Assembly: GCA_000004985.1 (NCBI GenBank)
Contig: GG738847.1
Reading direction: 5' to 3' (one strand)
Origin: Naegleria gruberi
Taxonomy: Eukaryota
Length of the DNA stretch: 64,000 bases
The first letter of the stretch is position 1. Every line of letters begins with the position of its first letter. This document shows, piece after piece, positions 1 through 49,950 of this stretch. The translations under genes and the position numbers were made by a program. The notes beneath the pieces were generated by a model. That model ran no database searches. It saw only the letters and a list, made by a program, of their open reading frames with translations, and was not told the DNA's origin.

Positions 1-18
1 AGCTTTTCTCCCATCAGG

Positions 19-360
19 ATGTACCTTCCACTTTCTGATGTCTATCAATATGAAATTCAGAATGTTTGTGGAAACAAGTCAGAATCTTCATTCCTTGTAG
101 TTTGTAAAATAATTTCTGCAGATAATAATTATAATGTGGCTATGGAACCTTACATGATGTTCCTAGTTGACCCAATGAAGAATAAGACAGAAAAGATAGA
201 ATGTCCTTTTTATGGAAAATCTCAGTGGTCGATCAATAACGTACAACTCACCCAATTCTTTTCCATATTGGTTGTAAATGAAGAGCCAAGTGAGTGGTTT
301 ATGAAACGACTAATTTCATGTGAAAAGTGGAGAGATATCACCATTTTCACAAATGATTAA
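19..360 (+). CDS. hypothetical protein, possibly an internal or terminal exon of a gene that starts upstream of the window
   Basis: Continuous 113-aa ORF beginning at ATG 19. It is immediately preceded by tctcccatcag, which looks like an acceptor. No recognisable domain. Confidence 0.25.
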   Translation: MYLPLSDVYQYEIQNVCGNKSESSFLVVCKIISADNNYNVAMEPYMMFLVDPMKNKTEKIECPFYGKSQWSINNVQLTQFFSILVVNEEPSEWFMKRLISCEKWRDITIFTND

Positions 361-394
361 AGTTAATGTCCATGTTTTATTTTCCTTTTGAACC

Positions 395-2002
395 TTATCT
401 TCTCAATCTAAAGTCCTTAGTTGTGGATTCTTTTGTGAGAGAAACAGAAGCTTTCAAAGGAGAATAACCCTTAGCTGTAATTGTCAATTCATAAGTCTTG
501 TTTAAGGCCAAGAATAAGTAATAACTTCCAAAGTAATTAGTCTTTCTACTTTCGCCAGCTTTCCAAACAATTCCAGAAACCTCAATCAATGCATTTTCGA
601 TAGGTTTACCAGATTTTTCATCATAGATATGGCCACGAAGAGGTATTGGTTTGTAAGCAAAGTGTTCAAAGAGAGAAACCAATTGAACTGCCTCACTAAC
701 AGTTTCATTGAGAGGTGGTTGATGAGAATGCATAATTTCTACAAGGAATGAATAGGAAGTATATTCCTTAATTTGATGTTCCTGGTGTTCACCATCTGAG
801 GATGGTACTCTAAGAGCATAACCAACCTTAGTGGCCAATTCTTGTCCCAAACTTTTAATGTAATCTTGTTGGGCATTGTTTGTACAGGTATATCCTGTAA
901 GAACTTGTCTACCAGAACTGTGGAAATCCAATACTTTGGCAACTCCTCCAATTCTCTTAGTGAAATCTCTGATGGCAGATGTTTCAATTTCAGAGAATGC
1001 GTTCTTGCCCTTATAAGTGTCCATGTTAGGACTTCCATTTCCTGCACAACTATTAAAACCTAAATCATAATTTCTATTCAAATCAATTCCAAAAACAGTT
1101 GTTCCATTGACAACACCAGCAACATTTCTGTTCTTTCTCCAGAAATTATTTGTTGTAAATACATATTCATAACCATCAACATTAACAACTGGAATGAAAT
1201 AGAATTGATTAAATTCCAATAAATCTTCCCAATTTGGATCCGATAACAATTTTTCAATCATAGCAATATTAGTAATAACAGTGTTAATTTCTCTTGAGTG
1301 ATGAGCAGATACAACAAGAATATTTGGAACATCTCTATTCTTTTCTACATTTTTAGAAATTTTAACACCAAAAATGTGACGATTTTCAAAAGTTGGTTTG
1401 GTTGTAATTTGAATCTTTTTAACCTTTCCTGGATATCTCTTTTCAAGTCCACTCAAATAATTATTAACTTGATTTAAATTTGGATATCCTTCAGGAACTC
1501 TATCAAATCCACTATAAACCTTCAAAACATCCCTTTTCAATTCTGGATCCATCTTTGCAAGAGTAATTGTAGATTTTTGCATAATATCAGCTTCATCACC
1601 ATCCTCCCCCTGTTGATTATCACTCAATACACTCTCACTCATACTTCTTGAATTAGAATAAACAACTTTACAATTATCCTTATAATAAGCCAACAATTGT
1701 TTCAATTCCTCATCTCCAATATATAAATAAACATTTGTTCTCGTTGCAGAGATTACATTAAATCCACATTTCATAAAACGATCTCCAACTCCACTCAATT
1801 CCTGCTCACTAAACAAACCTGTCAAGGAAATTTGCACAATATATTGGAAATTATTACTTGATCCAACACTGACAGGAATTTTGTCATCGCAATATACTCT
1901 ATCAACAGTACATGCGATGAATAAAAACATGACAATGAAAAATAGGCTCATCCACCTCTTCGAAGAAGATGTTTTGTTTCCTCGTTGCGCCACCATCATC
2001 AT
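395..2002 (-). CDS. M14 zinc carboxypeptidase (carboxypeptidase A/D-like) with a C-terminal transthyretin-like (carboxypeptidase regulatory) domain; secreted
   Basis: A 539-aa ORF with the M14 HxxE zinc motif (VSAHHSREI) and a C-terminal transthyretin-like fold (GHIYDEKSGKPIENALIEVSG...ELTITAKGYSP). Its N-terminal hydrophobic signal is MSLFFIVMFLFIAC. The track start at 2014 is TTG; the first ATG is a few codons downstream. Confidence 0.8.
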   Translation of the reverse strand: MMMVAQRGNKTSSSKRWMSLFFIVMFLFIACTVDRVYCDDKIPVSVGSSNNFQYIVQISLTGLFSEQELSGVGDRFMKCGFNVISATRTNVYLYIGDEELKQLLAYYKDNCKVVYSNSRSMSESVLSDNQQGEDGDEADIMQKSTITLAKMDPELKRDVLKVYSGFDRVPEGYPNLNQVNNYLSGLEKRYPGKVKKIQITTKPTFENRHIFGVKISKNVEKNRDVPNILVVSAHHSREINTVITNIAMIEKLLSDPNWEDLLEFNQFYFIPVVNVDGYEYVFTTNNFWRKNRNVAGVVNGTTVFGIDLNRNYDLGFNSCAGNGSPNMDTYKGKNAFSEIETSAIRDFTKRIGGVAKVLDFHSSGRQVLTGYTCTNNAQQDYIKSLGQELATKVGYALRVPSSDGEHQEHQIKEYTSYSFLVEIMHSHQPPLNETVSEAVQLVSLFEHFAYKPIPLRGHIYDEKSGKPIENALIEVSGIVWKAGESRKTNYFGSYYLFLALNKTYELTITAKGYSPLKASVSLTKESTTKDFRLRR

Positions 2003-2702
2003 CGTTGTGTTCAACCAGCTGTAGCAAACGGTCCAGTACAGTCAGCGTGCTATTTTTTTTTAAAGATGTTTTTGTTCTTGTTCGGTTATGATAATCATTT
2101 CTATTGTAACATTTTTTGTTTTGAAAATTTGGTTTGTAATCAGATGTGATATTTTGTTGGATGGTTCAGTTTCAAACTTTGTTATTTGAAGGAAGAATTG
2201 TGAAGAAGATTACTTGTTGGAAGGTTGATTGTAAAGGTGATGAGGGTTGCAAAGAAGTTTTTGGTAAGAGTTGTATAATTAATTAAGGATGATGAATATT
2301 AAGCCATGTATTCATTTAAATTCATTATCAAGCAGACGAAGATAACATGGGATTACAATAGGCGTTTTCTGCATCTTTCTGGAAATGGTAACAAGTGCCG
2401 CTTGGTTCAAAAAAATGACCGTTACACATTTTAAATTGCAAGTCGTTACAAATTTAAATTACCACCGTTGACACCTAACCAATACAGCAAACAACATCAT
2501 TCAACAACCATACTACCAGTTGTACAACTCTCACAACAAACCAACATCAATCCACTCACTCCCTTCTCTCTATCATTTTGAGTGATTTGCAAGTGTTGAT
2601 CAATTTTTGCGGATCGCTTGCTCTCTTCATTATCAAATCTTCATATTGAAGAGAAATGAATTAATTTTAAATAACAGCCTAAAAAAAAGCATCTCTAACC
2701 TG

Positions 2703-4873
2703 ATGAGTAACAAGCAACAGTCGTTTTCTACAACGACTATGAATTCACCTATGGTTATTGGCTCGTCTACGACTGGTAGTGGTGGTAGTGGTCCTATAAC
2801 CATGATGATGATGAATAGTAATAGTAGTACTAGTGGTGGTGGAGGTAATAATTCATTGGTGAGTAGTTTGGTTGAACGTTCTACTACACCCTCTAATATG
2901 GGATCTAAGAAGAAGAATAAGCACCAGCTAATGCTTGATTCTTTAAATCGTTCTCCAATACACTTTTCTTCTAATACATCTACGAGAATAATAATAATAA
3001 CAATAATAATAATACTACTACTTCCTATTATAACATACAACAAATTTCACCCAAACTACAAGCCACTTATCATCAACAACAACAACAACAAATACTCACT
3101 CCTATAAAGACTCAAACACAAACACGTATTCAACAATACTTTAACAAGAATAACCAGAGAAGTAATAGTGCTGGACTCATTCAACTCCGACCTCAAAGTA
3201 GTAATTCGAATAATGATGAAAATTCTTCACCAATACAAAGCAAACAACAATCAAAGCCTACTAAACAAGCATTGACTACAACTATTGTCAATACCTTGGA
3301 TGGTTTACTTGTAAATAATAACAAGGAGAATGTATCTCCAACAACCCTAGGCACTACTAAATCTTTATCAGATTTAAAAATCTCAAAATCAACAACACAA
3401 CAAGAATCTAATACTCCTTCAATTACTACTCAAGAAGTACCAAGTATTCTCACTCCAACAACAATTGAATCACTCATTCTAAGATTTATTTCTAATGAGA
3501 CTCCTGTTATTAATAAGAAGATAACTAATGCATTGAGCAGCAGTGAAGAAAATTTGATCAAGTTTTTCAAATTGGTAACAGATCCACTTTCTTTGGGTGT
3601 TCACAAGAAGGAAACTCATGCCTTTGGTGAAAGATTTATTCAAGTTATATTTGCTGCAACAGGCACATTTGAAGAGTTAATTTCTAATAATTTAACTCTA
3701 ATTTTGAAAGAATTGTGCCATACATTTATTTCTGGTAGATTATATCATGAACAATTGATTGTAAAATTGATCAAACAATTGTATGATGTTTATAGAACAA
3801 GGGTACATACTGCCATTCGCATGAATAATTTAATGCCATACTTTGCACACATTACCTTTTTAACAAATTTCCTTGTTAAAGAAGTGATTCCTCTCAACAA
3901 TAGCAAATTGTATGAAGAAAAACTCAAATTCCTCGAATACTTTTGTAACAATTCCACCTACTGGAAGTTGTCTGATACAACAGTGTTTGTTGATTTATGG
4001 GAACAATCAATTATTCTAATGCAAGAAAGTAGTTATACTACCATGTTCCAAAAGATACAAGAACTCTTATTTTCTAAAGTTATTGACCAATGGTTTGATA
4101 CTGTTAGAAAGAGAGATTCATACGAGCAAGGTGTTGAATACTTGCAACTTTTAAATAACCTAGTGCGAGATACAAGTAATTCTTCTTTAGAAGTGATTAC
4201 AAACTTTCATTTTAAACTTTTGAAGAATCTTCTTGACAAACGATTCCCAATCATGGTTCAAATCCTTCTTGAGGATTTTAACAATAGATCCCATCAGTAT
4301 GGTGTTAAGCTGTCTGCATACAATATTAGAAATAGATTTACAGCTCTAAGATTAGAATTAGTTCATTTGCTTACATTTGTTGTACACTTTTCATATTTGG
4401 ATTGTATTGAAAAATCTGTTTTCCAAATGTATCCTCTAGAATCTAGTCAAATGATTGCAATTTTAACAGAGTATTTCTTTACTTACAATCACTGTAACGT
4501 TTATCATAACATTTATTGCATTCTATTCATGGAAGTTATTTTCAGAAATGAGGGCAATATAATCAAGTACTTTTTGGAAAAGTTCTTCTTTAGATCCGTC
4601 CAACTATATGAGAATAGATTAAAGGTTGATCAATGGGGCCATACTCTCCAATTGTTAAACATGATTAGATTAAGTTCAAAGTGTTCAGATAAGGAAGCAG
4701 AAATTAACAAATTCCTCTCCAAGCAAACAGAATGGAAACAATTCGAAGAAATTATCACTCAACAAACTCTATCTATGGAAGGTTTCTCTGATATTAGTCA
4801 CATTAATATTGGTTCTCCATTTGCTGAAAGATTTGGTTTTACAGAGTTTGATTTGTGTAAGTCTTCTGAATAA
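2703..4873 (+). CDS. SAPS-domain-like protein (SIT4/PP6 phosphatase-associated regulatory subunit family), with a low-complexity N-terminus
   Basis: ATG at 2703; the track ORF 2607 starts at TTG. There is a frame change near 2996-3000 inside an (aat)n repeat, and the downstream frame is open from 2999 to 4873. The pattern EYFFTYNHCNVYHNIYCILFMEV...QWGHTLQLL resembles the SAPS core (FFHYVFNNFLHAQVEV...GYMGHLTRV). I recalled this from memory and did not search. Confidence 0.45.
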
Positions 4874-5122
4874 ACAAATAAGATGTTTGAGTAATTTCAA
4901 TTATTATCCTCAATGTTAGAATATAATGAAATTGATTCGTCCTCCAAATTTCTATTCATAGGAAGAAAAGTGCTAAAAAAGAGATTTCAGTAGTTATTAA
5001 CTTCAGTTCTCTCTGTAAATTATACAACCTCATTATCTCTAACAGTAGTTTATTTTGATACCCATCATTACTGCTCATTAATATTCTGTCAACAACTCTA
5101 TTAAAAAAACAAAACAACAACA

Positions 5123-6129
5123 ATGCTTTCATTCACTAAGAGTAGATTAGTTGTTCAGCCAATCATATTACTCGCCTTTATTCTTACCATTTCCGTATCT
5201 CACTTTATTGTTGGTCAATCAACATTTACCAACAATTTTAAACAAGCAATCAATGCAGCCACCAACGAGTACAGTCAATCAAAGGAATGGAATTCATTCC
5301 AGGCAAGTCTTGGTTATATTTTTCAAACACCTACTTGTACCATCAGTGTCAAAGATGCTGTCTACCCTCAAATATTTAATTGGACTTTAAATGAGCTGGT
5401 TCTATGTTATGAAATGGAAGCAGTTGATCCATTCCCACGAATGCATGAATATGCTGGTCAATTACTTGTCAAGACTTTGAAAAATCATTACAATATTACA
5501 AATTTGAATGCAAAATTCTTAATTATCAATACTACTGAATTGGGATACTTTCCAACAATGAAAAATGCAGTAGATAGCGCAACTTGCCATGTTGCTATCG
5601 CCTCCACAAATTACGAGGAGAGCAGAAGTAATCAAGTTGAATTTCAATGTAAGTTTGATCTTTTGACTTTCTAACAAATCTATACGAAGGTCCATACGGA
5701 GCTAGTTTTACAGGAATATTGAGATCTGAAAGAAGTAATGGTTCACTAGTCATAAACACACCCTCTGACCTCAATAAGGAGGGTGTACTTATTGCAGCTC
5801 CATACATGACCATCGGTTATGAATATTCGAAAGTTAATTTTCCAAAAGCCACCATTTTATCTAACTTTGGATATCAAACAGCTTATCAAATGGTTATCAA
5901 TAAGGAAGTGCATGCTCTGATTGGTGATTATATTGAAATTAGTCAGTGGCTCCTAAGAACAAAGGCAAATTGTACTTCATGTTATGTTAAAATTTCAGAT
6001 TCTTCAAGAAGTTTCGGTTCTTTTATTTCAAAAGGTCTATTAACATCATCATCAAATAATGAAGTAGACTTGGTCACTCTCTTTAAATGTATCACACTTT
6101 TGTTAATTACCATATTTATAACATTATAA
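5123..6129 (+). CDS. secreted hypothetical protein (two exons)
   Basis: ATG at 5123 followed by a signal peptide (MLSFTKSRLVVQPIILLAFILTISVS). Exon 1 is 5123..5648 with a GTAAGT donor at 5649. A 41-nt intron spans 5649..5689, and exon 2 is 5690..6129 with phase conserved (…EFQ-C-PYGASFTGIL…). Confidence 0.5.
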
Positions 6130-6211
6130 ATATGGAAACCAATTATTCGAAAGCGAATTAAAAAGAAATTAATATTTAAAATATATATCACATAATCTCT
6201 TAAAAATATAT

Positions 6212-6390
6212 AGAACTTGGTACGTTTCGATCGTACGACCAGGAGGCTATTCTTGGTCTTTAGCTTAAAGTTTGATCTCAATCTCCTTCTCCTGACATTT
6301 ACCATTTGACCGCAGGAGTGAGGAACCATTCTACCACCAAACAACTTGGGACCGTTGGGATCCTTGCTCTCCCCACTGAGCTACAAGTTC
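6212..6390 (-). ncRNA. tRNA-shaped Pol III gene with a ~110-nt insertion between the D-arm and T-arm, a non-canonical anticodon region, and an initiator-type T-loop (ATCGAAA)
   Basis: The minus strand reads GAACTTG-TA-GCTC-AGTGGGGA-GAGC-A-AGGATCCCAACGGTCCC-[~105 nt]-GTACG-ATCGAAA-CGTAC-CAAGTTC-T. It has a perfect 7-bp acceptor stem, a canonical A-box/D-arm, a perfect 5-bp T-stem with a B-box-like TCGAA core, and an oligo-T terminator (fwd 6202-6206). No canonical 7-nt anticodon loop with U33 or R37 can be drawn. Confidence 0.4.
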
Positions 6391-6533
6391 TCCTGATAGA
6401 CACATAAGTTTCGAATAGAAAGTTTAGTATTACAATTCTCCACACTATATTTTGGTTTTAAAAATATTACAATAACTTTCCCAATTTGAAAAAACACGTA
6501 TTTTTCAAGACAACGAAACTGATTACAAAAAAA

Positions 6534-7028
6534 ATGTTAGAAACCAAAAGACTCAAACTTGTATTTCCCTCAATTTTCATTCTCTCCCAAGTTTTATTGT
6601 TAATTTTCATTATTGGATTTTCAAATGTTGTAACATGCAATGAAATTAAAAAGGAAACAACTGGAAAATGTTATTATGAGATATTGGGTTTAACTAAGGA
6701 AGCTTCAAAACAAGAGATTAAAAAACAATATAGAAGGTTAGTTGTGTTGATATTTAAAAAATTCGAATAGAAATTGTGAATTTCGAATAAAAGATTGTCG
6801 AGATGGTACACAGTTCCTTATATGGATAGATTTGTGCCAGCAAATGAGAGAGAAAAATATGCCCAAGAATATTTACCAATCATGAAAGCTTTTACAATTC
6901 TTTCAAATGACGAAAAGAGAAGAAAATACGATCATGATGGAATAATTGAAAATGATTACATTCCACAAAATGAATTTACTTTCGAATTCTTATTCAATAA
7001 TTTCCACTTTGATAAAAAGGAAGAATAG
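6534..7028 (+). CDS. ER-targeted J-domain-like (DnaJ-like) protein with no recognisable HPD motif (two exons)
   Basis: Signal/TM segment (MLETKRLKLVFPSIFILSQVLLLIFIIGF) followed by J-domain helices I-II (YYEILGLTKEASKQEIKKQYRR). The donor is GTTAGT at 6737, phase 2. In-phase acceptors lie at 6792-6793 or 6828-6829. Exon 2 carries helices III-IV (EREKYAQEYLPIMKAFTILSNDEKRRKYD). No His-Pro-Asp tripeptide appears in any frame. Confidence 0.55.
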
Positions 7029-8060
7029 GAGAAATTTTAGAGTTAATTAAATTGTTTATAAATTATTCAAAGATGGAGTTTTAGAATTCCAAAAATGGAA
7101 CAGCAGTCTGTTCTAGTAATACTTTTTGTTTCTTCGTTTTGGTTTTGGAAAAATGGAAATACTTAGCTAGAGGGTAAGAGATCCAATACTTTATCGACAC
7201 TTAATCCAACTTCACACAAAAAGTCAGTGTCCTCCTCAATTTAGTCCTGCCAATTAAAAAAAAATAGAATTTTCAATGATGAAACAATGCCTGTGTTGAA
7301 TGTGAATCTACAAGTTCTGTTCACTGATATTCTTTTTTACTGATTGAAGGAACAATTCCAAACTTTTCACGTGCATTAAAGAACACTTAATGAAGCAATT
7401 CCCATTGGTGCTTTACAATTTCTGTGACAATCAAAAATTAAAGAATAAGTTGGATTAAATATTAAGGAAGAAATAGAAAACTAAAGGGGTACGTATGGGC
7501 AAAAAAGCGTTTTATTGTAATTAGAAGATTTAATAATAAGGGCCAAAAGGAACATTACAACCCATCAAAACAACTTTCAAAATAATATAATTTCCTATTT
7601 GAAAACTACAATTATTCGAAAGTATATCCTAAACATTAAATTGTAAAGGATTCCATCAAAAACCACCAAGAAACTACAATGCCATCTACAATCATGGAAA
7701 ATCACTTTGAAAGTGTTATTGGAAACTTCTCACTTGTCCTTCTCAGATTAACATTCCATTCGATGAACTAAATTGTTACGATAGCTGATGACATTCGTGT
7801 CATTATAAAAAAAACAAGACGAATCTCTCTGCTCACTACGCACAAGAGATCGTCCATAGTAATACACAAGCAGCAAGAACAAAAACACTTTGGAAAATCA
7901 AATTGTCTACTGCTTCGATTCAAATCAACAATAATAATATTGGAAATTTAAATACAAATCTGTGATATTTTCCTGATTTTTCCAGAGAATTATATTACAA
8001 TCATAATCATAATAATCAACCATTATTTACCTATTGCAACAATAATAACAATAATAACGG

Positions 8061-10114
8061 ATGAGGATAATATCTTCCGAGTCGATGAACAAAAATAATG
8101 CCATGATGTGTAGTGGTGAGTCGTACTCAGCATCGTCACAATTTTTTTCCCTCCAAAACCACTACAATAACCTTTCCAGCCCAAGAACAACAAGATGCTG
8201 TAAAAAAGAGAAGAAGAGCAATGGTGCTGCTACAACAACTACTACTGCTAGTAGAACAGGAGGAAAAGGAGCCTTCTCCTCGGGATCTGCTTCTATTCAT
8301 CATTGGTTATTCATTGCATTGATGATTGGTTTGATGGTACTTTTTAGTGAGGTTAATAGTGTTCAGGCTAATTCATTAGTGAGTAATTATGAAATGATGA
8401 GTGATGCTGTTGGATTGAATGGAGGAGTGATGACTCTTGCTACTTATCAGAGTCAAAATTCTTCATCATCAATTAGAGTGGGAGGATATATTACAAATTA
8501 CAAAGTATTTATTGGACGTAATTGTACTCCAGAAACTAATGAAAGAGATTGTGGTGGATTGGAAGCACTTGTTTGTATTGATAATAAGTGTTCTTTTTGT
8601 ACAAATTCATCTCAATGCTCCGAACAAGTACACAACATTTATTCATGTCACAAAAAGGGAAATGACAATATTTGTGAACATAAGGATTTATTTGAATATG
8701 TTTCTTGGATGGATATTTTGGCAACAATTACTTGTTTTATTGGTGGAGTTCTTTCAGCTGCTTCAGGTACTGGTGGTGGTGGTGTTTTCGTTCCATTACT
8801 TCACGTTGCTGGTCAATTCCCACCTACCCTTGCAATTCCAATTTCAACATTGATGATTTTCGGTGCTGGTATTATCAATATTGCAACTTTGAGTTTCAAG
8901 AGACACCCTCACGCAGATCGTCCACTTATTGATTATGATATTGCTTTAATGATGGAACCTCCAACATTGTTGGGTACAATTATTGGTGTGTTCTTTAACA
9001 TGATGTTCCCTGATTGGCTCATTGTCGTTTTTGTTATTCTTACATTGAGTATTACCTCGTTTGTCATGTTTAAGAATGGTTACAAGAGATTGAAGAGAGA
9101 AAATGAAGAGAGAAAGAAATTGGAGGAATCTACAACTGAAGAAAATCATAATGATAATAATAATCCAACCACTGTCTATGATGGTGTCGATGGAGATGAA
9201 GAAAGTTTGTTAAAGGTTGAACAAACTACCTCCAATATTGTCGTTGCTGAAACCTCTGATGAAATTAAGATTGAACATCAAAATGAAGATCAACAAAGTG
9301 ATGATGGTGTTGGTTATTCAACAAGATCTATCGAGGAACAAAAAGAATTGCAACAAATGTATGAATCTGAAAAGAGAACACCATTTGGAAAGGTTATTGT
9401 CTTGTTTATTTGTTGGATGACTGTCTTTACATTGAGTTTGTTGAAAGGTGGTCACGGTGCTCCATCCATTATTCCTAGTGTTACACAATGTAGTGTTGGT
9501 TATTGGATTTTGACTGCATTGAGTTTCCCATTGCTTGGAGCAATGACTTTGGGCATTGTTTTCTACTTGTTGAAGAAACACGAAAGAAAGGTTCAAATTG
9601 GTTATCAATTCGTTGAAGGAGATGTTCATTGGAATAAGTACAATGTTACTCTCTATCCTATTGCTTGTGTTGGTGCTGGTATTTTGGCTTCCATGTTGGG
9701 TATTGGTGGTGGTATGGTCAAGTCTCCACTTTTACTTATTTTGGGAAGTGATCCAGTTTCTTCTCAAGCCACCACATCTTTCATGATTCTCTTCACATCA
9801 TCTATTTCTACTGTTCAATATTTGATTGCTGGATTATTACCTGTTGATTATGGTTTGTGGTTTTTGGCATGTGGTATTTGTAAGTAATTTTTTTATCAAG
9901 CAAATTCTAAATGATTGTATAAGTGTGTGGTGTATTTGGTCAATTGATTTTGGACTTGTGGTTGGACAAGAGTGGTAGAAGATCTATTATGATTTTCATT
10001 GTTGCAATTGTTACCCTTGCTGCTACATTCTTGATGGGTGGTGCTGGTATTTATGATGTTGTCAAACAAGTTGAAAAGGGTGTTTATATGGGATTCAGAT
10101 CACCATGTCTTTAA
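8061..10114 (+). CDS. TauE/SafE (TSUP, DUF81) family membrane transporter with an N-terminal Cys-rich extracellular region (two exons)
   Basis: ATG at 8061. Two TSUP half-repeats carry GxGGG motifs (GTGGGGVFVPLL and GIGGGMVKSPLL). A 44-nt intron spans 9880..9923 with a GTAAGT donor and taag acceptor. Exon 2 (9924..10114) keeps the frame (…WFLACGI-L-CGVFGQLILDLW…). Confidence 0.7.
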
Positions 10115-10339
10115 ATTATTGCCTTTTTGATAAGGTCCATTTGTAAATTGTCTAAACTTGCTCCATTGTTGTGGGGTACTAAATACTGAGATATCCTTAC
10201 TTTGCTAAACTAAAGTACATTATTTTATGATAAGAATTTAAAGTATTTCATTGTCTGTAAATCCAACATTGCCAAAGTCGCTGAGGGCTTAACAGCTGAT
10301 GAAGCTTCAGCAAAACCCTTAAGTTTAAATTACCATGAA

Positions 10340-10412
10340 GCCGACATAGCTCAGTTGGGAGAGCGTAAGACTGAAGATCTTAAGGTCCCTGGTTCGATCC
10401 CTGGTGTCGGCA
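10340..10412 (+). tRNA. tRNA-Phe (anticodon GAA)
   Basis: GCCGACATAGCTCAGTTGGGAGAGCGTAAGACTGAAGATCTTAAGGTCCCTGGTTCGATCCCTGGTGTCGGCA. It is near-identical to eukaryotic cytosolic tRNA-Phe, with a 7-bp acceptor, a GAA anticodon in CTGAAGA, and a T-run terminator (tttttattt) at 10420-10430. Position 51:63 is a T:T mismatch in the T-stem. Confidence 0.85.
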
Positions 10413-10439
10413 TAATTTTGCATTTTTATTTCCTTCGTT

Positions 10440-11021
10440 TTATCTTGTACAAAATTTAACACCTAATTCTGAGGGATGAGACTGTAAATCATCGAATTTA
10501 AGTGGACATTTGAAAATCCATTCACAATTTTCAATCATCTCATCATGTTTCGATTGAACAAATGTTGGAATGTCCAATTTGAATTGAGAGCCATGTAATT
10601 TCACATGTTGCATTCTTCTCCTCAGTAAATGCTGCCAGTTTTTAACATTTAACGATTTTTCAAACCTTGGATAATAACTAAACACCAAAGGTTTCCAAAT
10701 TAATTGCTGAACTCTTTCAAAACTTTCGTCTACAGTTTCGTAATCTTTTTCAATCACATTCTTTTCCACATTAAAAAATAATAATAACATTCTACTATTA
10801 CACAATGCCAAACTATTCAACAGTCTCACATCCATAAATTGTCCAATGTGAACAATCAACTCGGAGGGCAAATCCAACAATTTCACATTTCCAACAATAC
10901 AAATTTGATCTTTTCCATCACATGATGGGGGTTTGTTATTTTCCACTTGCGAAATATCATCACTAGCCTCCACAACACTGCTTTTTGAGAGATTTTTAAA
11001 AGGGTTCTTAAATAATGGCAT
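10440..11021 (-). CDS. hypothetical protein with an F-box-like segment
   Basis: A 193-aa ORF with ATG at 11019-11021. It has an F-box-like LLDLPSELIVHIGQFMDVRLLNSLALCNSR. Confidence 0.45.
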   Translation of the reverse strand: MPLFKNPFKNLSKSSVVEASDDISQVENNKPPSCDGKDQICIVGNVKLLDLPSELIVHIGQFMDVRLLNSLALCNSRMLLLFFNVEKNVIEKDYETVDESFERVQQLIWKPLVFSYYPRFEKSLNVKNWQHLLRRRMQHVKLHGSQFKLDIPTFVQSKHDEMIENCEWIFKCPLKFDDLQSHPSELGVKFCTR

Positions 11022-11200
11022 TTTTTTTAAAGATTTTTACAATGAACTTTTTCTAGTCAACCAGAGCAACAAGAGAAAAACTTCACAGTTTACAATCTTC
11101 ATGGTTGAAAGTAAATAGAAGAATCGCACAATTAGAACTATTGAAAAGGTTCCAAAGCCTTGTTTGCATTCAAAGCCTTCACTAAAAACTTTACAAAAAA

Positions 11201-13165
11201 ATGCCTCAACAACAACTCCAGGCATCACGGTTTTCATCCCTTCTTTCAAAATTACCCTCTTTTCGATCGGTGATTCTTCTCTTCTTTTCTCTTCTTTTAA
11301 ATTGTTTTTTATTGTTGTATATTGCTAGATATCATCGGAATGATTATCGGACATCAATTGAAGAATACAATAAATTAATGAATGGTCAAGCCATCACAAC
11401 CACCACAAGTAGTACAACAACAACAATGAGCACGACCTATCTACCAAATGATCAATTTCCCTTCCATATTAAAAAAGCATTAAATACATTGATTGAAAAA
11501 CAAAAAGGCAAATTTACAAGTTTAATTGATTATGGAGTTCCACGTATTGTGACAGCTACATCACATGATTATTTTGATAGACTTGAAAATTTTGTTGGAT
11601 CCATTCATGTAATGTATGAATCGAAAGGAAAGGATTTAAATCCAAGAATTAATTTAAAAACAATACCCAACGATGCAAAGATTAAAAAAGTATCAGATTC
11701 AATGGGTTCAAGTTATTGGTTTGGATGGAATACACTTGTTGAAGAGGAGAGTAGACCAATTCTAGTTTATGATTTGGGACTCACCAAGGAACAACGAGAA
11801 AAGTGTAAATCATGGAAAGGAGTTGAACTTGTGGATTTGGATTTTAATGTATTACCAAAACATTTTACAGAATTGAAAACATTTGCATGGAAACCACTTG
11901 TCATGTATTTGGCATTACAAAAATATCCATCAATAATATTCTTGGATAGTGGTGTTGAATTATGGAATAGATTGGATAAAATTGAAGATATTTTGTTTAC
12001 AAAGGGATATTTCTATGTAGTTCAAGAAGGTTTGAGAACTTTATGGAGATGTTGTGGTGATATTGGAGAATTAACTCATGAAACTACATTTAATCGATTG
12101 GGTTTATCAAGAAAAGAGTTTGGTCCAAAGACAATGTGTAGTGGAGGTATTCAGGGTTATATCAAGGATTCATATGCCTATAAAAATGTACTCGTTCCAA
12201 CATTGGAATGTGCTTGGGAGAAGGAATGTATGGCACCTACAGGAAGTCACATGGGCAACCATCGTCAAGATCAATCAGTTTTTTCATTACTTATTCACAA
12301 ATCAGGTCTAAACTGTGAAACTGATATTAGATTGTGGGGAAATAGAGGAAATTATGTTGATGTTCCAAAAGATGAAATTGTTTTATTCTTGAGAAAGGGA
12401 GCACGTGAAAAGCAATTTGTTGGATTTGCAGAAAAATCAAAGAAATTTGCCATTGTTTTACCATTCAGTGAACAAACCTTTGAAGCACTACTTTCAAATT
12501 TGAATCTTTGGAAGAAGAATTACTATTCGCCATGCACATCTTTATATAGAAGTGAATTTGATAGTGAAAGTGGAATTGATTTAATTTTCTATACCAATAA
12601 GAAATTAGGTGATTCATCCATTAGAGATGTTTCTAGTAGAATTGAACCAATTAGAAAATGTATCAAGAGTTTTGAATTTAAATATATTGATATGCAAGAT
12701 TCTGAAATGGGAAATAGAAATCAACTTTTAAGATTAGTTCAAGATGATTCATTCCATTCCAAGTATCATAGCTTCTTTTACATGACAACATATTCCCGAC
12801 CAATAAGACCAAATTGGATCAATGCAATTAATTCCATTGTCAAAGATTATCAACATTCAAAACCAGATTTTTGGTATATTGGATCGAATAATAGAGCAAA
12901 CTTTGAAATGTTTAATTTTGATGCTAGTGCTATTTATTCAACGGATATTTCATTTAGAACATTTTTGAATGACATTGCTTCAAAACAACAAACTGATCCA
13001 TTCAAAGATTTAATGGAACCAAAGAATTCTGATTTTACTAGGCAAGTGATGAGCAAATTTATTGTTCATGATTTTATTCAAAATTGGTTAAATTTCCCAA
13101 CATTTTCTGAAAAGATTGTCAGAGATTACAATTTGAGAACCTATTTTATTGATACGAGACCATAA
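11201..13165 (+). CDS. type II membrane protein, possibly a nucleotide-diphospho-sugar transferase-like (glycosyltransferase) fold
   Basis: ATG at 11201. The N-terminal signal anchor is VILLFFSLLLNCFLLLYIA. The segment WKPLVMYLALQKYPSIIFLDSGVELWNRL resembles the DxD region of PF03407-type transferases. The assignment is weak. Confidence 0.4.
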   Translation: MPQQQLQASRFSSLLSKLPSFRSVILLFFSLLLNCFLLLYIARYHRNDYRTSIEEYNKLMNGQAITTTTSSTTTTMSTTYLPNDQFPFHIKKALNTLIEKQKGKFTSLIDYGVPRIVTATSHDYFDRLENFVGSIHVMYESKGKDLNPRINLKTIPNDAKIKKVSDSMGSSYWFGWNTLVEEESRPILVYDLGLTKEQREKCKSWKGVELVDLDFNVLPKHFTELKTFAWKPLVMYLALQKYPSIIFLDSGVELWNRLDKIEDILFTKGYFYVVQEGLRTLWRCCGDIGELTHETTFNRLGLSRKEFGPKTMCSGGIQGYIKDSYAYKNVLVPTLECAWEKECMAPTGSHMGNHRQDQSVFSLLIHKSGLNCETDIRLWGNRGNYVDVPKDEIVLFLRKGAREKQFVGFAEKSKKFAIVLPFSEQTFEALLSNLNLWKKNYYSPCTSLYRSEFDSESGIDLIFYTNKKLGDSSIRDVSSRIEPIRKCIKSFEFKYIDMQDSEMGNRNQLLRLVQDDSFHSKYHSFFYMTTYSRPIRPNWINAINSIVKDYQHSKPDFWYIGSNNRANFEMFNFDASAIYSTDISFRTFLNDIASKQQTDPFKDLMEPKNSDFTRQVMSKFIVHDFIQNWLNFPTFSEKIVRDYNLRTYFIDTRP

Positions 13166-13754
13166 AATAAATGTATTTGTGTGAATTAATCGTAGAAAAC
13201 AGATTGAAATGATTTTACCAATGATATTAATGTCATCCTTATTGTTTCATTTCGAATTTCTCATTCAATGAACGACTGCTATATTTGTGCAAGATAAACT
13301 GGTCTGTCTACACAAACACAAATCACAAATTTTTAAATCTGTAATTAATTTTTATTTGTGTTTAGAGCTCTCATTGGTAACATTTTTCAATAATAAAAAG
13401 CTCTCAATATATTCATAATGTTTACAATAGTTCAATAATAATGGCATTCGAATAAAACTAAATGGCCTTTTCCTCTTTTCCACACAATTTCCTGCACCTA
13501 ATTATCCGTTTTAAAGTGGAACAGAAACCAACTGGTCTACAATTTATGTATCCCTTAATTGAATTTATGGACTCTTAACACAAGCTCCTAGAGAGTAGAC
13601 AAGTTATTAAATTGGATAATGATTTGAATGAGATTTCATTCCATTAATTTCATGGTATTTGAATATGGTCAATAATTTCCAATTATCTCACAATCCTCAA
13701 TCAAATTCATTGTTTTTGTGATCCATTCCATATCAAGAAGATACATTCAATAAT

Positions 13755-39789: not shown

Positions 39790-41155
39790 TTATTGTTTAG
39801 TAGTAGCATTTTCAAATCTTTGAACAAGTCTTTGATTTTGACCACTGTGTGGCTTCTTTTCAAGTCTCTTATCCAGCAATGACTTGGCAATTGGATGATT
39901 TTCCTTGTTTGGTGAATTGAAAATGGCATGAAGGAATAAAAGTTCAAATACATCTCTTTGAGCATTAGATCCACCAATTAAATGAGTCTTTCCAGGGAGA
40001 ATGACATCTTTGAGTAATTGAATAGTTTCATCAAATTTAGAATCATTAAAAGCATTAATTGCCTTACAAATTGGAATACCAACTTGTTGATGAACAAGAG
40101 CACAAGTATGATTAACATCATTAGATTTGGAATTTGTATAATTTTCCAATGATTGAATATGTGAATTAATAATTTCTTCATGAATTAATCTATTATTAAA
40201 TACCATTGTAATATGAGCATCATTAAAAGATAAAGCATGACTATGAATAATATTTTTCCATTGATTTCTAACCTTTTCCCATCTATTATCATTCTTTTCA
40301 ATCATACCTTCTAAATATAATCTAAATAATAAAGCAGAAGCATCAACTAAATCTAATGGAGTAATTGACTCGATGAAAATTGAAATCTTTTCATCATAAA
40401 TTTTTAAAATTTCATCCTTTTTTCCTTGATCCATTAAATATAAACAGAAATGCCACCACATATGACATGCTAATGCTTGACAATTAGCCCAATTATTTTC
40501 TTCTAATTTCATAAATTCAATTCCTTTTTGAATTTCACCTCTCATTTCATTAATATGAACAATTGCATGTAATGCCCATGCATCATCTTGATTAATTTCA
40601 ATAGCTTTAATTGCTGCTTTCATACCTTCATCATATCTATGTACTTCTTCTAATCCAAATGCTTTTTATATTAAATAAAATTAAAAATTAAATTAAAAAT
40701 ATTTAATAATATTTAATAAAATAAAAAATAAAAAATAACCCACCTAACATTCCCATAAAATAACCATATAATTCCATAGGTACATGATCATCTTGTTCAT
40801 AAATATTTAAATGTTTTTCAACACTTGAACAAATATTATTAGATTGACCAAGATAGAAATAAGCATCATGTGCAAATTTAAGTGCAATTACATCTAATGA
40901 ATCAATTTTTAATAATTCTTCCCATATTTCAGTAGCATTAATATATCTACCTTCTCTCCATGATTCTAATGCTTTAATATGAAGAATTTCAATTTCATTT
41001 TCACTTTTTAATTCTTTTAAAAATTTTAATTTTTTTAAATAATTTTCATTATCTAAAAATAGATCAGTTCTTAATAATTCACTTCCTAATTCAATCACTC
41101 TTGCCATTACATTTAATGGTTCTTCTTTTAATGTTTTTTCAAGTGTTTCTGTCAT
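39790..41155 (-). CDS. ttc38: tetratricopeptide repeat protein 38 (TTC38) homolog, at least two exons; the 5' end may extend into the N-gap
   Basis: Exon 1 is 40744..41155 and runs up to the gap. An 82-nt intron spans 40662..40743 (GTGGGT…aaaaag). Exon 2 is 39790..40661. It is collinear with TTC38 (IDSLDVIALKFAHDAYFYLGQ; DAWALHAIVHINEMRGEIQKGIEFM; WWHFCLYL; IGGSNAQRDVFELLFLHAIF). Confidence 0.8.
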
Positions 41156-41660
41156 TGAATTCTTCCATCCAATGTACTTTTATGATCATGATGATTATAT
41201 GTATACTTAATTGTATTGTTATTACNNNNNNNNNNNNNNNNNNNNNNNNNNNNNNNNNNNNNNNNNNNNNNNNNNNNNNNNNNNNNNNNNNNNNNNNNNN
41301 NNNNNNNNNNNNNNNNNNNNNNNNNNNNNNNNNNNNNNNNNNNNNNNNNNNNNNNNNNNNNNNNNNNNNNNNNNNNNNNNNNNNNNNNNNNNNNNNNNNN
41401 NNNNNNNNNNNNNNNNNNNNNNNNNNNNNNNNNNNNNNNNNNNNNNNNNNNNNNNNNNNNNNNNNNNNNNNNNNNNNNNNNNNNNNNNNNNNNNNNNNNN
41501 NNNNNTCCAACATACACACTCCTCAAAGATAAAATATCTTAATCACTCCCAATTTTAATCAATGATTATTATCCACACTGTACTACTACTACTACTTGAA
41601 GAGATTACCATTAAATTAAATAATATTAATATATTCAATTATAAAATTCAATTAAAAAAA

Positions 41661-42379
41661 ATGTTGTCCAAATTTAAAAACTGTTTAAACATTTCTTCTT
41701 CTTCAAGAAACAAATTCATTCAATCATCACTATGTAAATTAAATAATACCACCAATAATATTACCAATAATAATAATATTTATCGTTCATTTACCATTAC
41801 TAATTCAACATTCTCTTCTTCTTCCGATAATAATTCATCATCATCATCATTTACATCACAACAACAATTAGAACAATTAAATAATAACAATTCATCTCCA
41901 TCATCCAATAATAATAATTCTAATAATTCTTCTAATAATAATAATTCTTCTTCTAATCATACATTTTCATTAGAAGATTTAGATAAAGTAAAAGAAGAAT
42001 TAATTAAAAATTTATTAGAAATTGATTCTAATTCATCAGTTCCATTACCATCACCTGGTAAATCATCTGGTGATCAATCAATTGATGAAGCAACTAAACA
42101 ATGGAGATTAACAAATACTAAAGATGATGAAAATTTACAAAAATTATTTAAATCAACAAAACAAAAAGCATCAACTTCTTTATTAGAACAATCTCAATTA
42201 AATAGTAATATTAATGATATGGAAAATGATGATTTTGAAGTTGGTGTTGATAAAGATGAATTTTCTAAATATGTTAATCCATTCAATCCTGAAACACAAG
42301 AAGTTAATGGTCCAAAAAGGTGCTGAACCTACTAGATTTGGTGATTGGGAAAGAAGTGGAAGATGTGTTGATTTTTAAA
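41661..42379 (+). CDS. sdhaf4: succinate dehydrogenase assembly factor 4 (SDHAF4 / DUF1674) homolog; a -1 frameshift at an A5 run near the C-terminus
   Basis: ATG at 41661 with a mitochondrial-presequence-like N-terminus and an Asn/Ser-rich linker. The C-terminal signature NPFNPETQEVNGPK is followed, after removing one A from ccaaaaagg (~42320), by GAEPTRFGDWERSGRCVDF*. This matches the SDHAF4 terminus GPKGPEPTRYGDWERKGR. Confidence 0.6.
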
Positions 42380-42492
42380 ATATTTTAAAAATTATATTAT
42401 ATTAATAATACCCTTTTTTATTAAAATAATAATATTTATAATTAAAATAAATATTATAAAAATATAATATAATAAATATAATAATAATAAAA

Positions 42493-47823: not shown

Positions 47824-48074
47824 TTATTTTTGTAAGCAATCCAGAGTTGGTAAAAAACCCATTTTTGAAACAAACGAGAATTTTCCATTTCTTCATATCT
47901 TTAGAGACCTCTATTGTTTCTTCCTTCTGACTTTTTGGATTAAATTCAATAGTTTTGAATATTGCTCTCCTTGATTTTGTTTGTGGTTTTATATCTAAAT
48001 TTACAATAATAATATCATACATATTTACAATTATTTTTCTGCAATATTTAAAGTGATTTGCTTTTCAGCCAAGT

Positions 48075-49791: not shown

Positions 49792-49950
49792 TACTATTAG
49801 GATGAAATAAATGTGAATATTTAAAAATTTTAATCATCATTATGATTCAATAATAATTGTAGTGTTAATAGTTAGTAATTAAATATCATTGATATTAAAA
49901 TATTAAATATTTACTTTATATTTTTAATTTAAATATAATTATAATAATAA

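What the first reader, a model, noticed from the sequence alone, without database searches (positions are those of the whole stretch)
6212..6390. tRNA-shaped Pol III gene with a ~110-nt internal insertion and a eukaryotic-initiator-type T-loop
The minus strand shows a perfect 7-bp acceptor stem (GAACTTG/CAAGTTC). It has a canonical D-arm/A-box (TAGCTCAGTGGGGAGAGC) and a perfect T-stem (GTACG/CGTAC). The 7-nt T-loop is ATCGAAA. A54 and A60 in that loop are, from memory, the hallmark of eukaryotic cytoplasmic initiator tRNA. A discriminator base and a T5 terminator follow. Between the D-arm and T-arm there are ~125 nt instead of ~25. I cannot draw a canonical anticodon loop. The best attempt gives AGGAT/CTCCT stems around CCCAAC, which has C33 and C37, and the helix closes only if ~105 nt are removed. 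Three readings are possible: a tRNA with an unusually long or non-canonically placed intron, a tRNA-derived structured ncRNA, or a tRNA gene disrupted by an insertion. It sits in a 350-bp intergenic space and overlaps only a junk antisense ORF (5982..6344).
Basis: partly seen in the sequence, partly recalled or inferred. Interest (0 to 1): 0.75.

Follow-up and report, generated by a model that had tools for sequence, protein, structure and literature searches.

The report
tRNA-shaped gene with large internal insertion
A Naegleria (not dictyostelid) genome carries a gene that looks like a complete tRNA apart from an abnormal anticodon loop and about 110 extra, unusually GC-rich bases in the middle; it is probably an odd tRNA-like RNA gene, but with no relatives or expression data its function is unknown and it could be a defective tRNA copy.

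Summary
On the minus strand, 6390..6212 has a perfect 7-bp acceptor stem, a canonical D-arm, a perfect T-arm with loop ATCGAAA, a discriminator base and a T5 run. About 129 nt separate the D and T arms.

- **Known families:** none claims it. ARAGORN at default settings and Rfam 15 (E<=10) give no hit. ARAGORN calls a class-I "tRNA-Leu(CAA)" with a 107-nt intron only at a relaxed threshold. The in-silico spliced form passes at default.
- **Organism:** flanking proteins place the window in a Naegleria species, not a dictyostelid.
- **T-loop:** it is not initiator-specific. The same loop occurs in elongator tRNAs from metagenomes.
- **Anticodon loop:** every reading gives CCCAAC(C/G), with C33 and anticodon CAA, so an ordinary decoder is unlikely.
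- **Middle of the RNA:** "Intron" versus "giant variable-region expansion" is unresolved.
- **Composition:** the element is the GC-richest stretch of the 64-kb window and has no internal T4 run.
- **Homologues:** none found in about 88 kb of N. lovaniensis and Willaertia DNA, one metagenome scan or one viral scan. Conservation is untested.

Best reading: an expressed, non-canonical tRNA-like Pol III gene (0.5). Main rival: an aberrant, functionless tDNA copy (0.3). Interest is moderate.

The parts
6384..6390 (-). Acceptor stem, 5' strand GAACUUG (RNA 1-7)
   Evidence: Pairs 7 of 7 Watson-Crick with 6213-6219. Pair probability >=0.986.
6366..6383 (-). U8-A9 plus D-arm (GCUC-AGUGGGGA-GAGC); A-box-like internal promoter region
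   Evidence: Matches the tRNA-Phe D-arm at 17 of 18 positions. 0.00 matches expected by chance. D-stem probability 0.92.
6349..6363 (-). Proximal hairpin GGAUC-CCAAC-GGUCC at the position of an anticodon arm. As a 4-bp stem it has the 7-nt loop CCCAACG (C33, CAA, C37).
   Evidence: pair probability 0.72-0.86.
6342..6348 (-). Internal near-copy (CAAGUUG) of the 3' acceptor strand, immediately 3' of the proximal hairpin. It can close an alternative 6-bp helix with RNA 2-7.
   Evidence: The alternative fold is -43.8 against -49.8 kcal/mol for the minimum-energy fold, and has probability about 0.
6247..6353 (-). 107-nt insertion (RNA 38-144), an intron if the distal AGGA/UCCU stem is used. 44.7% GC was measured on the slightly longer 114-nt insert, RNA 32-145. 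Folds alone into one irregular rod with central hairpin CUCCUG/CAGGAG.
   Evidence: z = -0.61, not significant; central hairpin probability >=0.94; GC content. Unique in the window.
6241..6246 (-).
   Evidence: 4 Watson-Crick pairs plus a U31.C39 mismatch. Ensemble probability about 0.
6237..6258 (-). 3' hairpin GACCA-(12 nt)-UGGUC abutting the T-stem. Mutually exclusive with the distal anticodon stem.
   Evidence: (probability >=0.96).
6220..6236 (-). T-arm GUACG-AUCGAAA-CGUAC; B-box-like internal promoter
   Evidence: 0.03 expected by chance; probability >=0.98.
6212..6219 (-). Acceptor 3' strand CAAGUUC plus discriminator U
6202..6211 (-). 3' trailer AUAUA plus T5 run (6206-6202), a Pol III terminator-like site
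   Evidence: There is no TTTT inside the 179-nt element.

Best explanation
This is a tRNA-derived, Pol III-type gene of a Naegleria species that encodes a non-canonical tRNA-like RNA.

Inferred from sequence:
- The A-box and B-box regions (D-arm and T-arm) recruit TFIIIC and TFIIIB, and transcription stops at the T5 run 6 nt past the discriminator.
- The 5' and 3' parts fold into an intact tRNA body (acceptor, D and T arms, all tertiary-contact nucleotides). RNase P, RNase Z and the CCA-adding enzyme should therefore treat it like a pre-tRNA.

Shown by sequence: the anticodon loop is CCCAAC(C/G), with C33, Y37 or G37, and anticodon CAA on a class-I body. It is unlikely to decode normally.

Unresolved: about 107-111 GC-rich nucleotides lie between the anticodon-arm position and the T-arm. 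They could be excised as an unusually long intron by the ruler-type tRNA splicing endonuclease. That would leave a tRNA-like RNA of about 72 nt plus a free 107-nt intron RNA. Alternatively they stay in place as a structured expansion of a tRNA scaffold, which nearest-neighbour thermodynamics favours.

I infer selection, rather than recent accident, from the undamaged body and the extreme GC content of both body and insertion.
For: - All 16 stem pairs of the acceptor, D and T arms are Watson-Crick and the conserved tertiary nucleotides are present. These arms dominate the folding ensemble even in the 179-nt context, with probability 0.92-1.0.
- The D-arm and T-arm matches are far beyond chance.
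- The element has 46.9% GC, within the top 0.03% of all 179-nt windows. 6281-6400 is the GC-richest 120-nt stretch of the 64-kb window. The flanks have 22-28% GC.
- There is no T4 run inside the element. Only 22% of 179-nt windows lack one.
- The in-silico spliced sequence is called a tRNA by ARAGORN at its default threshold.
- The insertion lies where nuclear tRNA introns lie. Real eukaryotic tRNA genes with 103-nt and 120-nt introns and the same T-loop exist.
- The deviations from the tRNA consensus are concentrated in the anticodon loop rather than spread across the molecule. Neutral decay would not produce that pattern.
Against: - No orthologue or paralogue was found, so there is no conservation or covariation evidence.
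- There are no expression data.
- Predicted folding is not more stable than shuffled sequence: z = -1.0 for the whole element and -0.61 for the insertion.
- N. gruberi has about 924 tDNAs with fast turnover (PMC2888827), so one-off aberrant copies are expected.
- The locus sits in a lineage-specific, rearranged block.
- I could not draw a canonical bulge-helix-bulge or anticodon-intron pairing at the putative splice sites (manual inspection).
Confidence: 0.5

Rival explanations
1. It is an aberrant, functionless tDNA copy: a pseudogene or young defective duplicate. On this reading a tRNA gene acquired or expanded an insertion in its anticodon region and mutated its loop. It may still be transcribed, because the A and B boxes survive, but nothing depends on it.
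For: - N. gruberi carries about 924 tDNAs, and tDNA loci turn over about as fast as unconstrained sequence (PMC2888827).
- The element is single-copy in the window and lies in a lineage-specific block.
- Loop positions 33 and 37 and the 31-39 pair are non-canonical.
- There is no thermodynamic signal for the insertion.
- ARAGORN at default and Rfam do not call it.
Against: - Not one of the 16 stem pairs or the conserved tertiary nucleotides of the body is damaged.
- Both the body and the 114-nt insertion are strong GC outliers in an AT-rich genome. That outlier status should erode quickly without selection.
- The insertion has no T4 run that would stop Pol III.
- A random insertion would fall in the 7-nt anticodon loop only about 10% of the time (inference).
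Confidence: 0.3
2. It is a genuine decoding tRNA with an unusually long intron. Splicing at 36/37 or 37/38 gives a class-I tRNA with anticodon CAA. It could be made functional by C-to-U editing at position 33, or tolerated with C33.
For: - ARAGORN with introns allowed and a relaxed threshold calls tRNA-Leu(caa) with a 107-nt intron.
- The spliced form passes the default threshold.
- The anticodon stem AGGA/UCCU sits in exactly canonical register, with 1 nt after the D-stem and a 4-nt variable loop.
- Introns longer than 100 nt exist in real eukaryotic tRNAs.
- The eukaryotic endonuclease uses a ruler mechanism rather than a strict local motif (PMC4090602).
Against: - Cytosolic Leu tRNAs are class II, with a long variable arm and a different D-arm (established knowledge). 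This body is class I.
- It has C33 instead of the near-universal U33, Y37 under 37/38 splicing, and a U31.C39 mismatch.
- The distal anticodon stem has about 0 ensemble probability.
- At the same relaxed threshold ARAGORN makes 5 other implausible calls in this window.
- True long-intron tRNAs were found at the default threshold, but this element was not.
Confidence: 0.1
3. It is the RNA component of a specific ribonucleoprotein of the vault-RNA or Y-RNA type. On this reading it is a Pol III type-2 transcript whose paired termini and central variable domain bind a TROVE-family protein.
For: It has the general vault-RNA architecture: A and B boxes, paired 5' and 3' ends, a central variable domain and a T-run. 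Vault RNA exists in the related Discoba lineage, in T. brucei (PMC12547018).
Against: - No hit to the Rfam Vault or Y_RNA families, or to any other family, even at E<=10.
- Naegleria is reported to lack full-length MVP genes and to encode only short forms (PMC12547018).
- The termini follow exact tRNA geometry rather than the extended panhandle of vault or Y RNAs.
Confidence: 0.07

Closest known systems
Nuclear intron-containing pre-tRNAs with very long introns. Examples found here are the environmental tRNA-Met(CAU) with a 103-nt intron (L005) and tRNA-Val(CAC) with a 120-nt intron (L007). From memory only, the Drosophila tRNA-Tyr gene whose 113-nt intron yields a circular RNA.
   Same: - Same overall layout: a 5' half with D-arm TAGCTCAGTNGGGAGAGC, more than 100 nt inserted in the anticodon region, and a 3' half with T-loop ATCGAAA.
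- Acceptor stem closed by the two ends, with a T-run just downstream.
   Different: - Those genes have a canonical YU-NNN-R anticodon loop and a 5-bp anticodon stem, and ARAGORN calls them at its default threshold.
- This element has C33, a mismatched or alternative stem, and an anticodon (CAA) that does not fit its class-I body.
- It is called only at a relaxed threshold.
Eukaryotic cytoplasmic initiator tRNA-Met
   Same: T-loop AUCGAAA (A54, A60). The anticodon loop starts CCCA, with C33 as in vertebrate initiators (that comparison is from memory).
   Different: - G1:C72 rather than A1:U72.
- Anticodon CAA rather than CAU.
- No G29-G31:C39-C41 run.
- Elongator-type D-arm.
- The T-loop is shared with several elongator tRNAs.
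Vault RNA (Rfam RF00006; T. brucei vtRNA)
   Same: Pol III type-2 internal promoter, paired termini, a poorly constrained central domain, and a length in the 90-180 nt range.
   Different: - No Rfam match.
- Exact tRNA cloverleaf geometry at the ends.
- The host genus reportedly lacks full-length MVP (PMC12547018).
Class II tRNAs (Leu, Ser, Sec) with a long variable arm
   Same: In the thermodynamically preferred fold the extra sequence emerges between an intact anticodon-position hairpin and the T-arm. That is where variable arms sit. The anticodon triplet reads CAA (Leu).
   Different: - The extra region is about 111 nt in two hairpins. Known variable arms are about 13-23 nt in one hairpin (established knowledge).
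- The D-arm is class-I type.
- The anticodon hairpin closes to a 5-nt loop.
Archaeal tRNA-Trp intron encoding a C/D box sRNA, and tRNA-scaffolded RNAs
   Same: A functional RNA carried inside a tRNA body and released or stabilised by tRNA processing is an established principle.
   Different: No C/D or H/ACA boxes were seen in the insertion (by eye). I could not draw a bulge-helix-bulge motif.

Membership tests
tRNA (canonical, Rfam RF00005 / ARAGORN) | 7-bp acceptor stem, D-arm and T-arm in canonical spacing, with conserved tertiary nucleotides | tested here: met
   sequence; pair probabilities 0.92-1.0. Searches show the matches are beyond chance.
tRNA (canonical, Rfam RF00005 / ARAGORN) | 5-bp anticodon stem with a 7-nt loop carrying U33 and purine 37 | tested here: not met
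   The loop is CCCAAC(C/G), with C33. The stem is either 4 Watson-Crick pairs plus U.C (distal) or A.C plus 3 Watson-Crick pairs plus U.G (proximal).
tRNA (canonical, Rfam RF00005 / ARAGORN) | Detected by standard tRNA finders at curated or default thresholds | tested here: not met
   ARAGORN at default finds nothing here. Rfam finds nothing at the gathering threshold or at E<=10. Only -ps90 with introns gives a call. tRNAscan-SE was not available.
Intron-containing nuclear pre-tRNA | [quoted passage not shown] | tested here: inconclusive
   The position is compatible with 36/37 or 37/38. In the constrained fold both sites lie in an internal loop next to a GGUC/GACC helix. No A-I pair or bulge-helix-bulge could be drawn, and the required stem has about 0 ensemble probability.
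Eukaryotic initiator tRNA-Met | A1:U72, anticodon CAU, three G:C pairs at 29-31:39-41 | tested here: not met
   G1:C72, CAA, and stem AGGAU.
Eukaryotic initiator tRNA-Met | A54 and A60 in the T-loop | tested here: met
   AUCGAAA. It is not exclusive to initiators: the same loop occurs in Met-elongator-like, Val, Ala, Asn and Glu tRNAs.
Vault RNA | Match to the Rfam Vault covariance model | tested here: not met
   No hit at E<=10.
Vault RNA | Association with MVP/TEP1 particles | not testable with these tools
   Literature only: Naegleria lacks full-length MVP (PMC12547018).
Telomerase RNA (ciliate-type Pol III transcript) | Template of at least 1.5 telomeric repeats | tested here: not met
   The candidate N. 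gruberi telomere repeat is TTTGGG (PMC3622300). The element has only CCCAAC and CCCAAG, with no CCCAAACCC-type template.
tmRNA | tRNA-like domain with G3:U70 plus a tag reading frame | tested here: not met
   ARAGORN tmRNA search negative. The pair at that position is A3:U70.
SINE or other repeated tRNA-derived element | Multiple dispersed copies, A-rich tail, target-site duplications | tested here: not met
   Single copy in the 64-kb window. No copy in 88 kb of related genomes. No tail or flanking duplication seen. A whole genome was not available.

The most novel reading that the evidence does not exclude
Heterolobosean amoebae maintain a previously undescribed class of Pol III RNA. An intact, non-decoding tRNA body with initiator-flavoured T and anticodon loops acts as a processing and stability scaffold for a structured domain of about 110 nt. 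Alternatively, a tRNA gene is kept only to deliver its long GC-rich intron as the functional, possibly circular, RNA.
Probability: 0.2. Interest if true: 0.65.

Novelty: new variant of a known kind. Interest (0 to 1): 0.42.

Why it matters
If it is conserved and expressed, it would be a natural example of a tRNA used as a scaffold for another RNA domain, or of a tRNA gene whose product of interest is the intron. It would come from a deep-branching eukaryotic lineage whose non-coding RNAs are almost unexplored. It would also mark a blind spot of standard tRNA and Rfam annotation. If it is only a defective tDNA, it is one of many in a genus with hundreds of fast-turning-over tRNA genes and has little importance.

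Tried and rejected
**Orthologue retrieval by synteny**
- I fetched N. lovaniensis and Willaertia loci around orthologues of the 533-aa gene and the TauE gene.
- The element is absent there. tblastn shows that the 5.0-11.2 kb block holding it is lineage-specific.
- The N. gruberi orthologue (XP_002682274.1) has no DNA on record.
- A window protein is not on record either.

**Sequence and literature scans**
- Metagenome scan for A-box, 118-148 nt, then GATCGAAAC: 21 loci, none homologous. They are tRNA pairs or true long-intron tRNAs.
- Viral scan for the exact D-arm: 7 loci, none homologous.
- Literature search for the sequence strings: 0 papers.

**Hypotheses considered and dropped**
- Telomerase RNA, prompted by CCCAAC in the loop. 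The Naegleria repeat is TTTGGG and no template is present.
- Vault RNA, weakened by the absence of any Rfam hit and by the reported lack of full-length MVP.
- tmRNA, tRNA-Sec, C/D and H/ACA snoRNA, 5S-like, and ribozymes. No boxes were seen and Rfam gave no hits.
- MITE or transposon insertion. No terminal inverted repeats, no target duplication and no other copy.
- An alternative splice register giving CAU. It needs an 8-nt loop or breaks the anticodon stem (manual enumeration).

**Not run**
- A home-made tRNA covariance model. The only training tRNAs available had been selected with the element's own D-arm pattern, which would bias the score.

Full report
**1. What is in the sequence**

On the minus strand the element runs from 6390 to 6212. 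Its layout is:

GAACUUG-UA-GCUC-AGUGGGGA-GAGC-A-AGGAU-CCCAAC-[107 nt]-C-CUCCU-GGUC-GUACG-AUCGAAA-CGUAC-CAAGUUC-U, followed by AUAUA-UUUUU.

- The acceptor (7 bp), D (4 bp) and T (5 bp) stems are all Watson-Crick.
- U8, A14, G15, G18, G19, A21, C48, G53, U55, C56, G57, A58 and C61 are as in standard tRNAs.
- The deviations are A54 and A60 in the T-loop, and C33 and C37 in the loop that follows AGGAU.
- The 18-nt D-arm differs at one base from that of the only canonical tRNA in the window, tRNA-Phe(GAA) at 10340-10412.
- Neither the D-arm nor the T-arm is expected by chance: 0.00 and 0.03 matches in shuffles.

One detail is wrong: ORF 5982..6344 lies on the same strand as the element, not antisense to it.

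**2. Organism**

The neighbouring ORFs match Naegleria proteins:
- N. lovaniensis, 60% and 79% identity.
- N. gruberi, 83%.
- Willaertia magna, 41-53%.

The window is from a Naegleria species that is not itself in the protein collection. It is not a dictyostelid.

**3. Does any known family claim it?**

No.
- ARAGORN at default settings finds only tRNA-Phe.
- Rfam 15 finds only tRNA-Phe at gathering thresholds.
- Rfam finds nothing meaningful at E<=10 on 401 nt or on 191 nt around the element. That covers tRNA, tRNA-Sec, Vault, Y RNA, SRP, RNase P/MRP, 5S and the ribozymes.

With introns allowed and the score threshold lowered to 90%, ARAGORN calls a class-I "tRNA-Leu(caa)". The call has a 107-nt intron at 36/37, loop CCCAAGC and a U.C mismatch at 31-39. 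That setting also produces five implausible calls elsewhere in the window, so it is weak evidence on its own.

Two controls help interpret this:
- With the insertion removed in silico, ARAGORN calls the sequence at its default threshold.
- Real tRNA genes with 103-nt and 120-nt introns from metagenomes are called at default with the intron in place.

So the tRNA body is good. The anticodon region is what fails.

**4. The middle of the molecule**

Two drawings are possible.

AGGA (27-30) pairs with UCCU (147-150), in exactly canonical register: one nucleotide after the D-stem and a 4-nt variable loop GGUC before the T-stem. This leaves a 107-nt intron at the usual place.

(b) The thermodynamic drawing, which has three local hairpins:
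- a proximal hairpin GGAUC-CCAAC-GGUCC (probability 0.72-0.86);
- a central hairpin CUCCUG/CAGGAG inside a long irregular arm (probability >=0.94);
- a 3' hairpin GACCA/UGGUC abutting the T-stem (probability >=0.96).

The acceptor, D and T arms keep probabilities of 0.92-1.0 in this ensemble. The distal stem of drawing (a) has probability about 0. Forcing it costs 7 kcal/mol, giving -42.8 against -49.8.

In drawing (b) the extra 111 nt sit in the variable-region position and nothing needs to be spliced.

Both drawings give the same loop, CCCAAC(G/C): C33, anticodon CAA and a pyrimidine at 37, or G37 with 36/37 splicing. Enumerating every split that yields a 7-nt loop never gives CAU. CAA belongs to leucine, whose cytosolic tRNAs are class II with a different D-arm (established knowledge). 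The RNA is therefore unlikely to be an ordinary decoder.

Folding energies are not better than shuffles: z = -1.0 for the whole element and -0.61 for the insertion. Structure in the insertion is therefore not demonstrated.

A 7-nt near-copy of the 3' acceptor strand (CAAGUUG, RNA 43-49) follows the proximal hairpin directly. It could close a 49-nt alternative mini-structure at -43.8 kcal/mol. This is unexplained.

**5. Signs of selection or function available without relatives**

- The element has 46.9% GC and its flanks have 22-28%. Only 0.03% of 179-nt windows in the 64 kb reach that value.
- 6281-6400 is the GC-richest 120-nt stretch of the whole window.
- The 114-nt insertion alone has 44.7% GC.
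- There is no T4 run inside the element, although 78% of windows of this length have one. A T5 follows 6 nt after the discriminator.
- The insertion is unique in the window.
- Deviations from the tRNA consensus are confined to the anticodon loop, and no stem pair elsewhere is broken.

This pattern fits a maintained tRNA body with a changed "business end" better than neutral decay does. A very young aberrant copy would look the same.

**6. The "initiator" T-loop**

The metagenome scan returned 21 loci. It searched for the A-box, then 118-148 nt, then GATCGAAAC. ARAGORN annotation of those loci shows the loop ATCGAAA in two kinds of tRNA:
- initiator tRNAs;
- elongator-type tRNAs: Met with a long intron, Val(CAC) with a 120-nt intron, Ala(CGC), Asn(GUU) and Glu(UUC).

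The loop is therefore not diagnostic. The element also lacks A1:U72, CAU and the three G:C pairs of initiators. It does share C32-C33-C34-A35 with vertebrate initiators, a resemblance I recall from memory and treat only as a lead.

**7. Relatives**

None was found.
- Synteny failed. M14 peptidase and the 533-aa gene, and separately the DUF1647 gene, are conserved neighbours in N. lovaniensis and Willaertia. The 5.0-11.2 kb block between them in the window is arranged differently there. That block holds an unknown secreted-type gene, the element, a small J-domain-like gene, TauE, tRNA-Phe and an F-box-like ORF.
- nhmmer, BLAST and ARAGORN found no copy in 88 kb of those genomes.
- No N. gruberi DNA could be fetched.
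- The metagenome and viral scans gave no homologue.
- A full-text search for the sequence strings gave no paper.

N. gruberi has about 924 tDNAs, and tDNA loci in general turn over fast (PMC2888827). This explains the lack of synteny. It also raises the prior for one-off aberrant copies.

**8. Mechanism I commit to**

Confidence 0.5.
- It is a Pol III type-2 gene. TFIIIC binds the A and B boxes, which are about 150 bp apart.
- Transcription ends at the T5 run.
- The transcript folds into a tRNA body that RNase P, RNase Z and the CCA-adding enzyme can process.
- The product is a non-decoding tRNA-like RNA.
- The insertion has one of two fates. It may stay as a structured expansion, as thermodynamics favours. 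It may instead be removed by the ruler-type splicing endonuclease, as its position and the canonical register of AGGA/UCCU allow (PMC4090602).
- If it is removed, the products are a tRNA-like RNA of about 72 nt and a 107-nt GC-rich intron RNA.

All steps after "the sequence has these motifs" are inferred, not shown.

**9. Rivals**

- An aberrant, functionless tDNA copy (0.3).
- A real decoding tRNA with a long intron, possibly needing C33 editing (0.1).
- A vault-type or Y-type RNP RNA (0.07). This is weakened by the absence of any Rfam match and by the report that Naegleria has only short MVP forms (PMC12547018).
- A telomerase-RNA idea was rejected. The N. gruberi repeat is TTTGGG and the element has no template (PMC3622300).

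**10. Verdict**

This is a real, tRNA-derived, Pol III-type gene that current annotation tools do not classify. It is a new variant of a known kind: a long-intron tRNA or a tRNA-like ncRNA. Interest is moderate, because conservation, expression and function are all untested. A BLASTN or cmsearch against the other Naegleria genomes and one northern blot would settle most of it.

Noticed in passing
window 1-13200: The window is from a Naegleria species, with 60-84% protein identity to N. lovaniensis, N. gruberi and a Logan contig. It is not a dictyostelid. A 654-aa protein from the window (11201-13162) was looked up by exact match and is not on record in the collection.
   Followed up: partly
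window 5000-11200: The block holding the element is arranged differently in N. lovaniensis and Willaertia, while the flanking M14 peptidase, 533-aa gene and DUF1647 gene are conserved neighbours. The block contains an unknown signal-peptide-like gene at 5123-6129, the element, a small J-domain-like gene at 6535-7028, TauE at 8061-10111, tRNA-Phe and an F-box-like ORF.
   Followed up: partly
window 10340-10412 (+): A canonical tRNA-Phe(GAA), 67.9 bits against Rfam tRNA, with a normal TTCGATC T-loop. The A54/A60 loop of the element is therefore not a general Naegleria trait.
   Followed up: yes
window 6342-6348 and 6213-6219 (-): The 7-nt direct repeat CCAAGTT occurs inside the element. The internal copy sits right after the proximal hairpin and can pair with the 5' acceptor strand to close a 49-nt mini-structure. 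It could be a vestige of a duplication or an alternative fold. It is unexplained.
   Followed up: partly
L005 (1555-1712), L007 (1119-1290), L018, L020/L021: Metagenome contigs carry eukaryotic tRNA genes with very long introns: Met(CAU) with 103 nt and Val(CAC) with 120 nt containing a (CA)n run. L020/L021 look like a Met gene interrupted twice, with one insertion right after the D-stem. L018, a relative of L005, is missed by ARAGORN.
   Followed up: no
L012/L017/L022 (matched strand, first tRNA): Next to an initiator tRNA lies a tRNA-like gene with T-loop ATCGAAA and an odd anticodon region, CCGGTCCTTTTAAACCGG. ARAGORN labels it tRNA-??? (tt).
   Followed up: no
L026 (7743-) and L028 (viral contigs of 85 and 220 kb): These carry the same D-arm (TAGCTCAGTGGGGAGAGC). 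It is followed by CCAGC-TTTCATT, about 100 nt of AT-rich sequence, GCTGG and a normal T-arm. The acceptor strands do not match each other, and a second tRNA-like 5' half follows. ARAGORN does not call it.
   Followed up: no
window 40000-50000: A markedly AT-rich stretch with 19-23% GC in 2-kb windows and a strong negative GC skew at 40-42 kb, against about 30% GC elsewhere.
   Followed up: no
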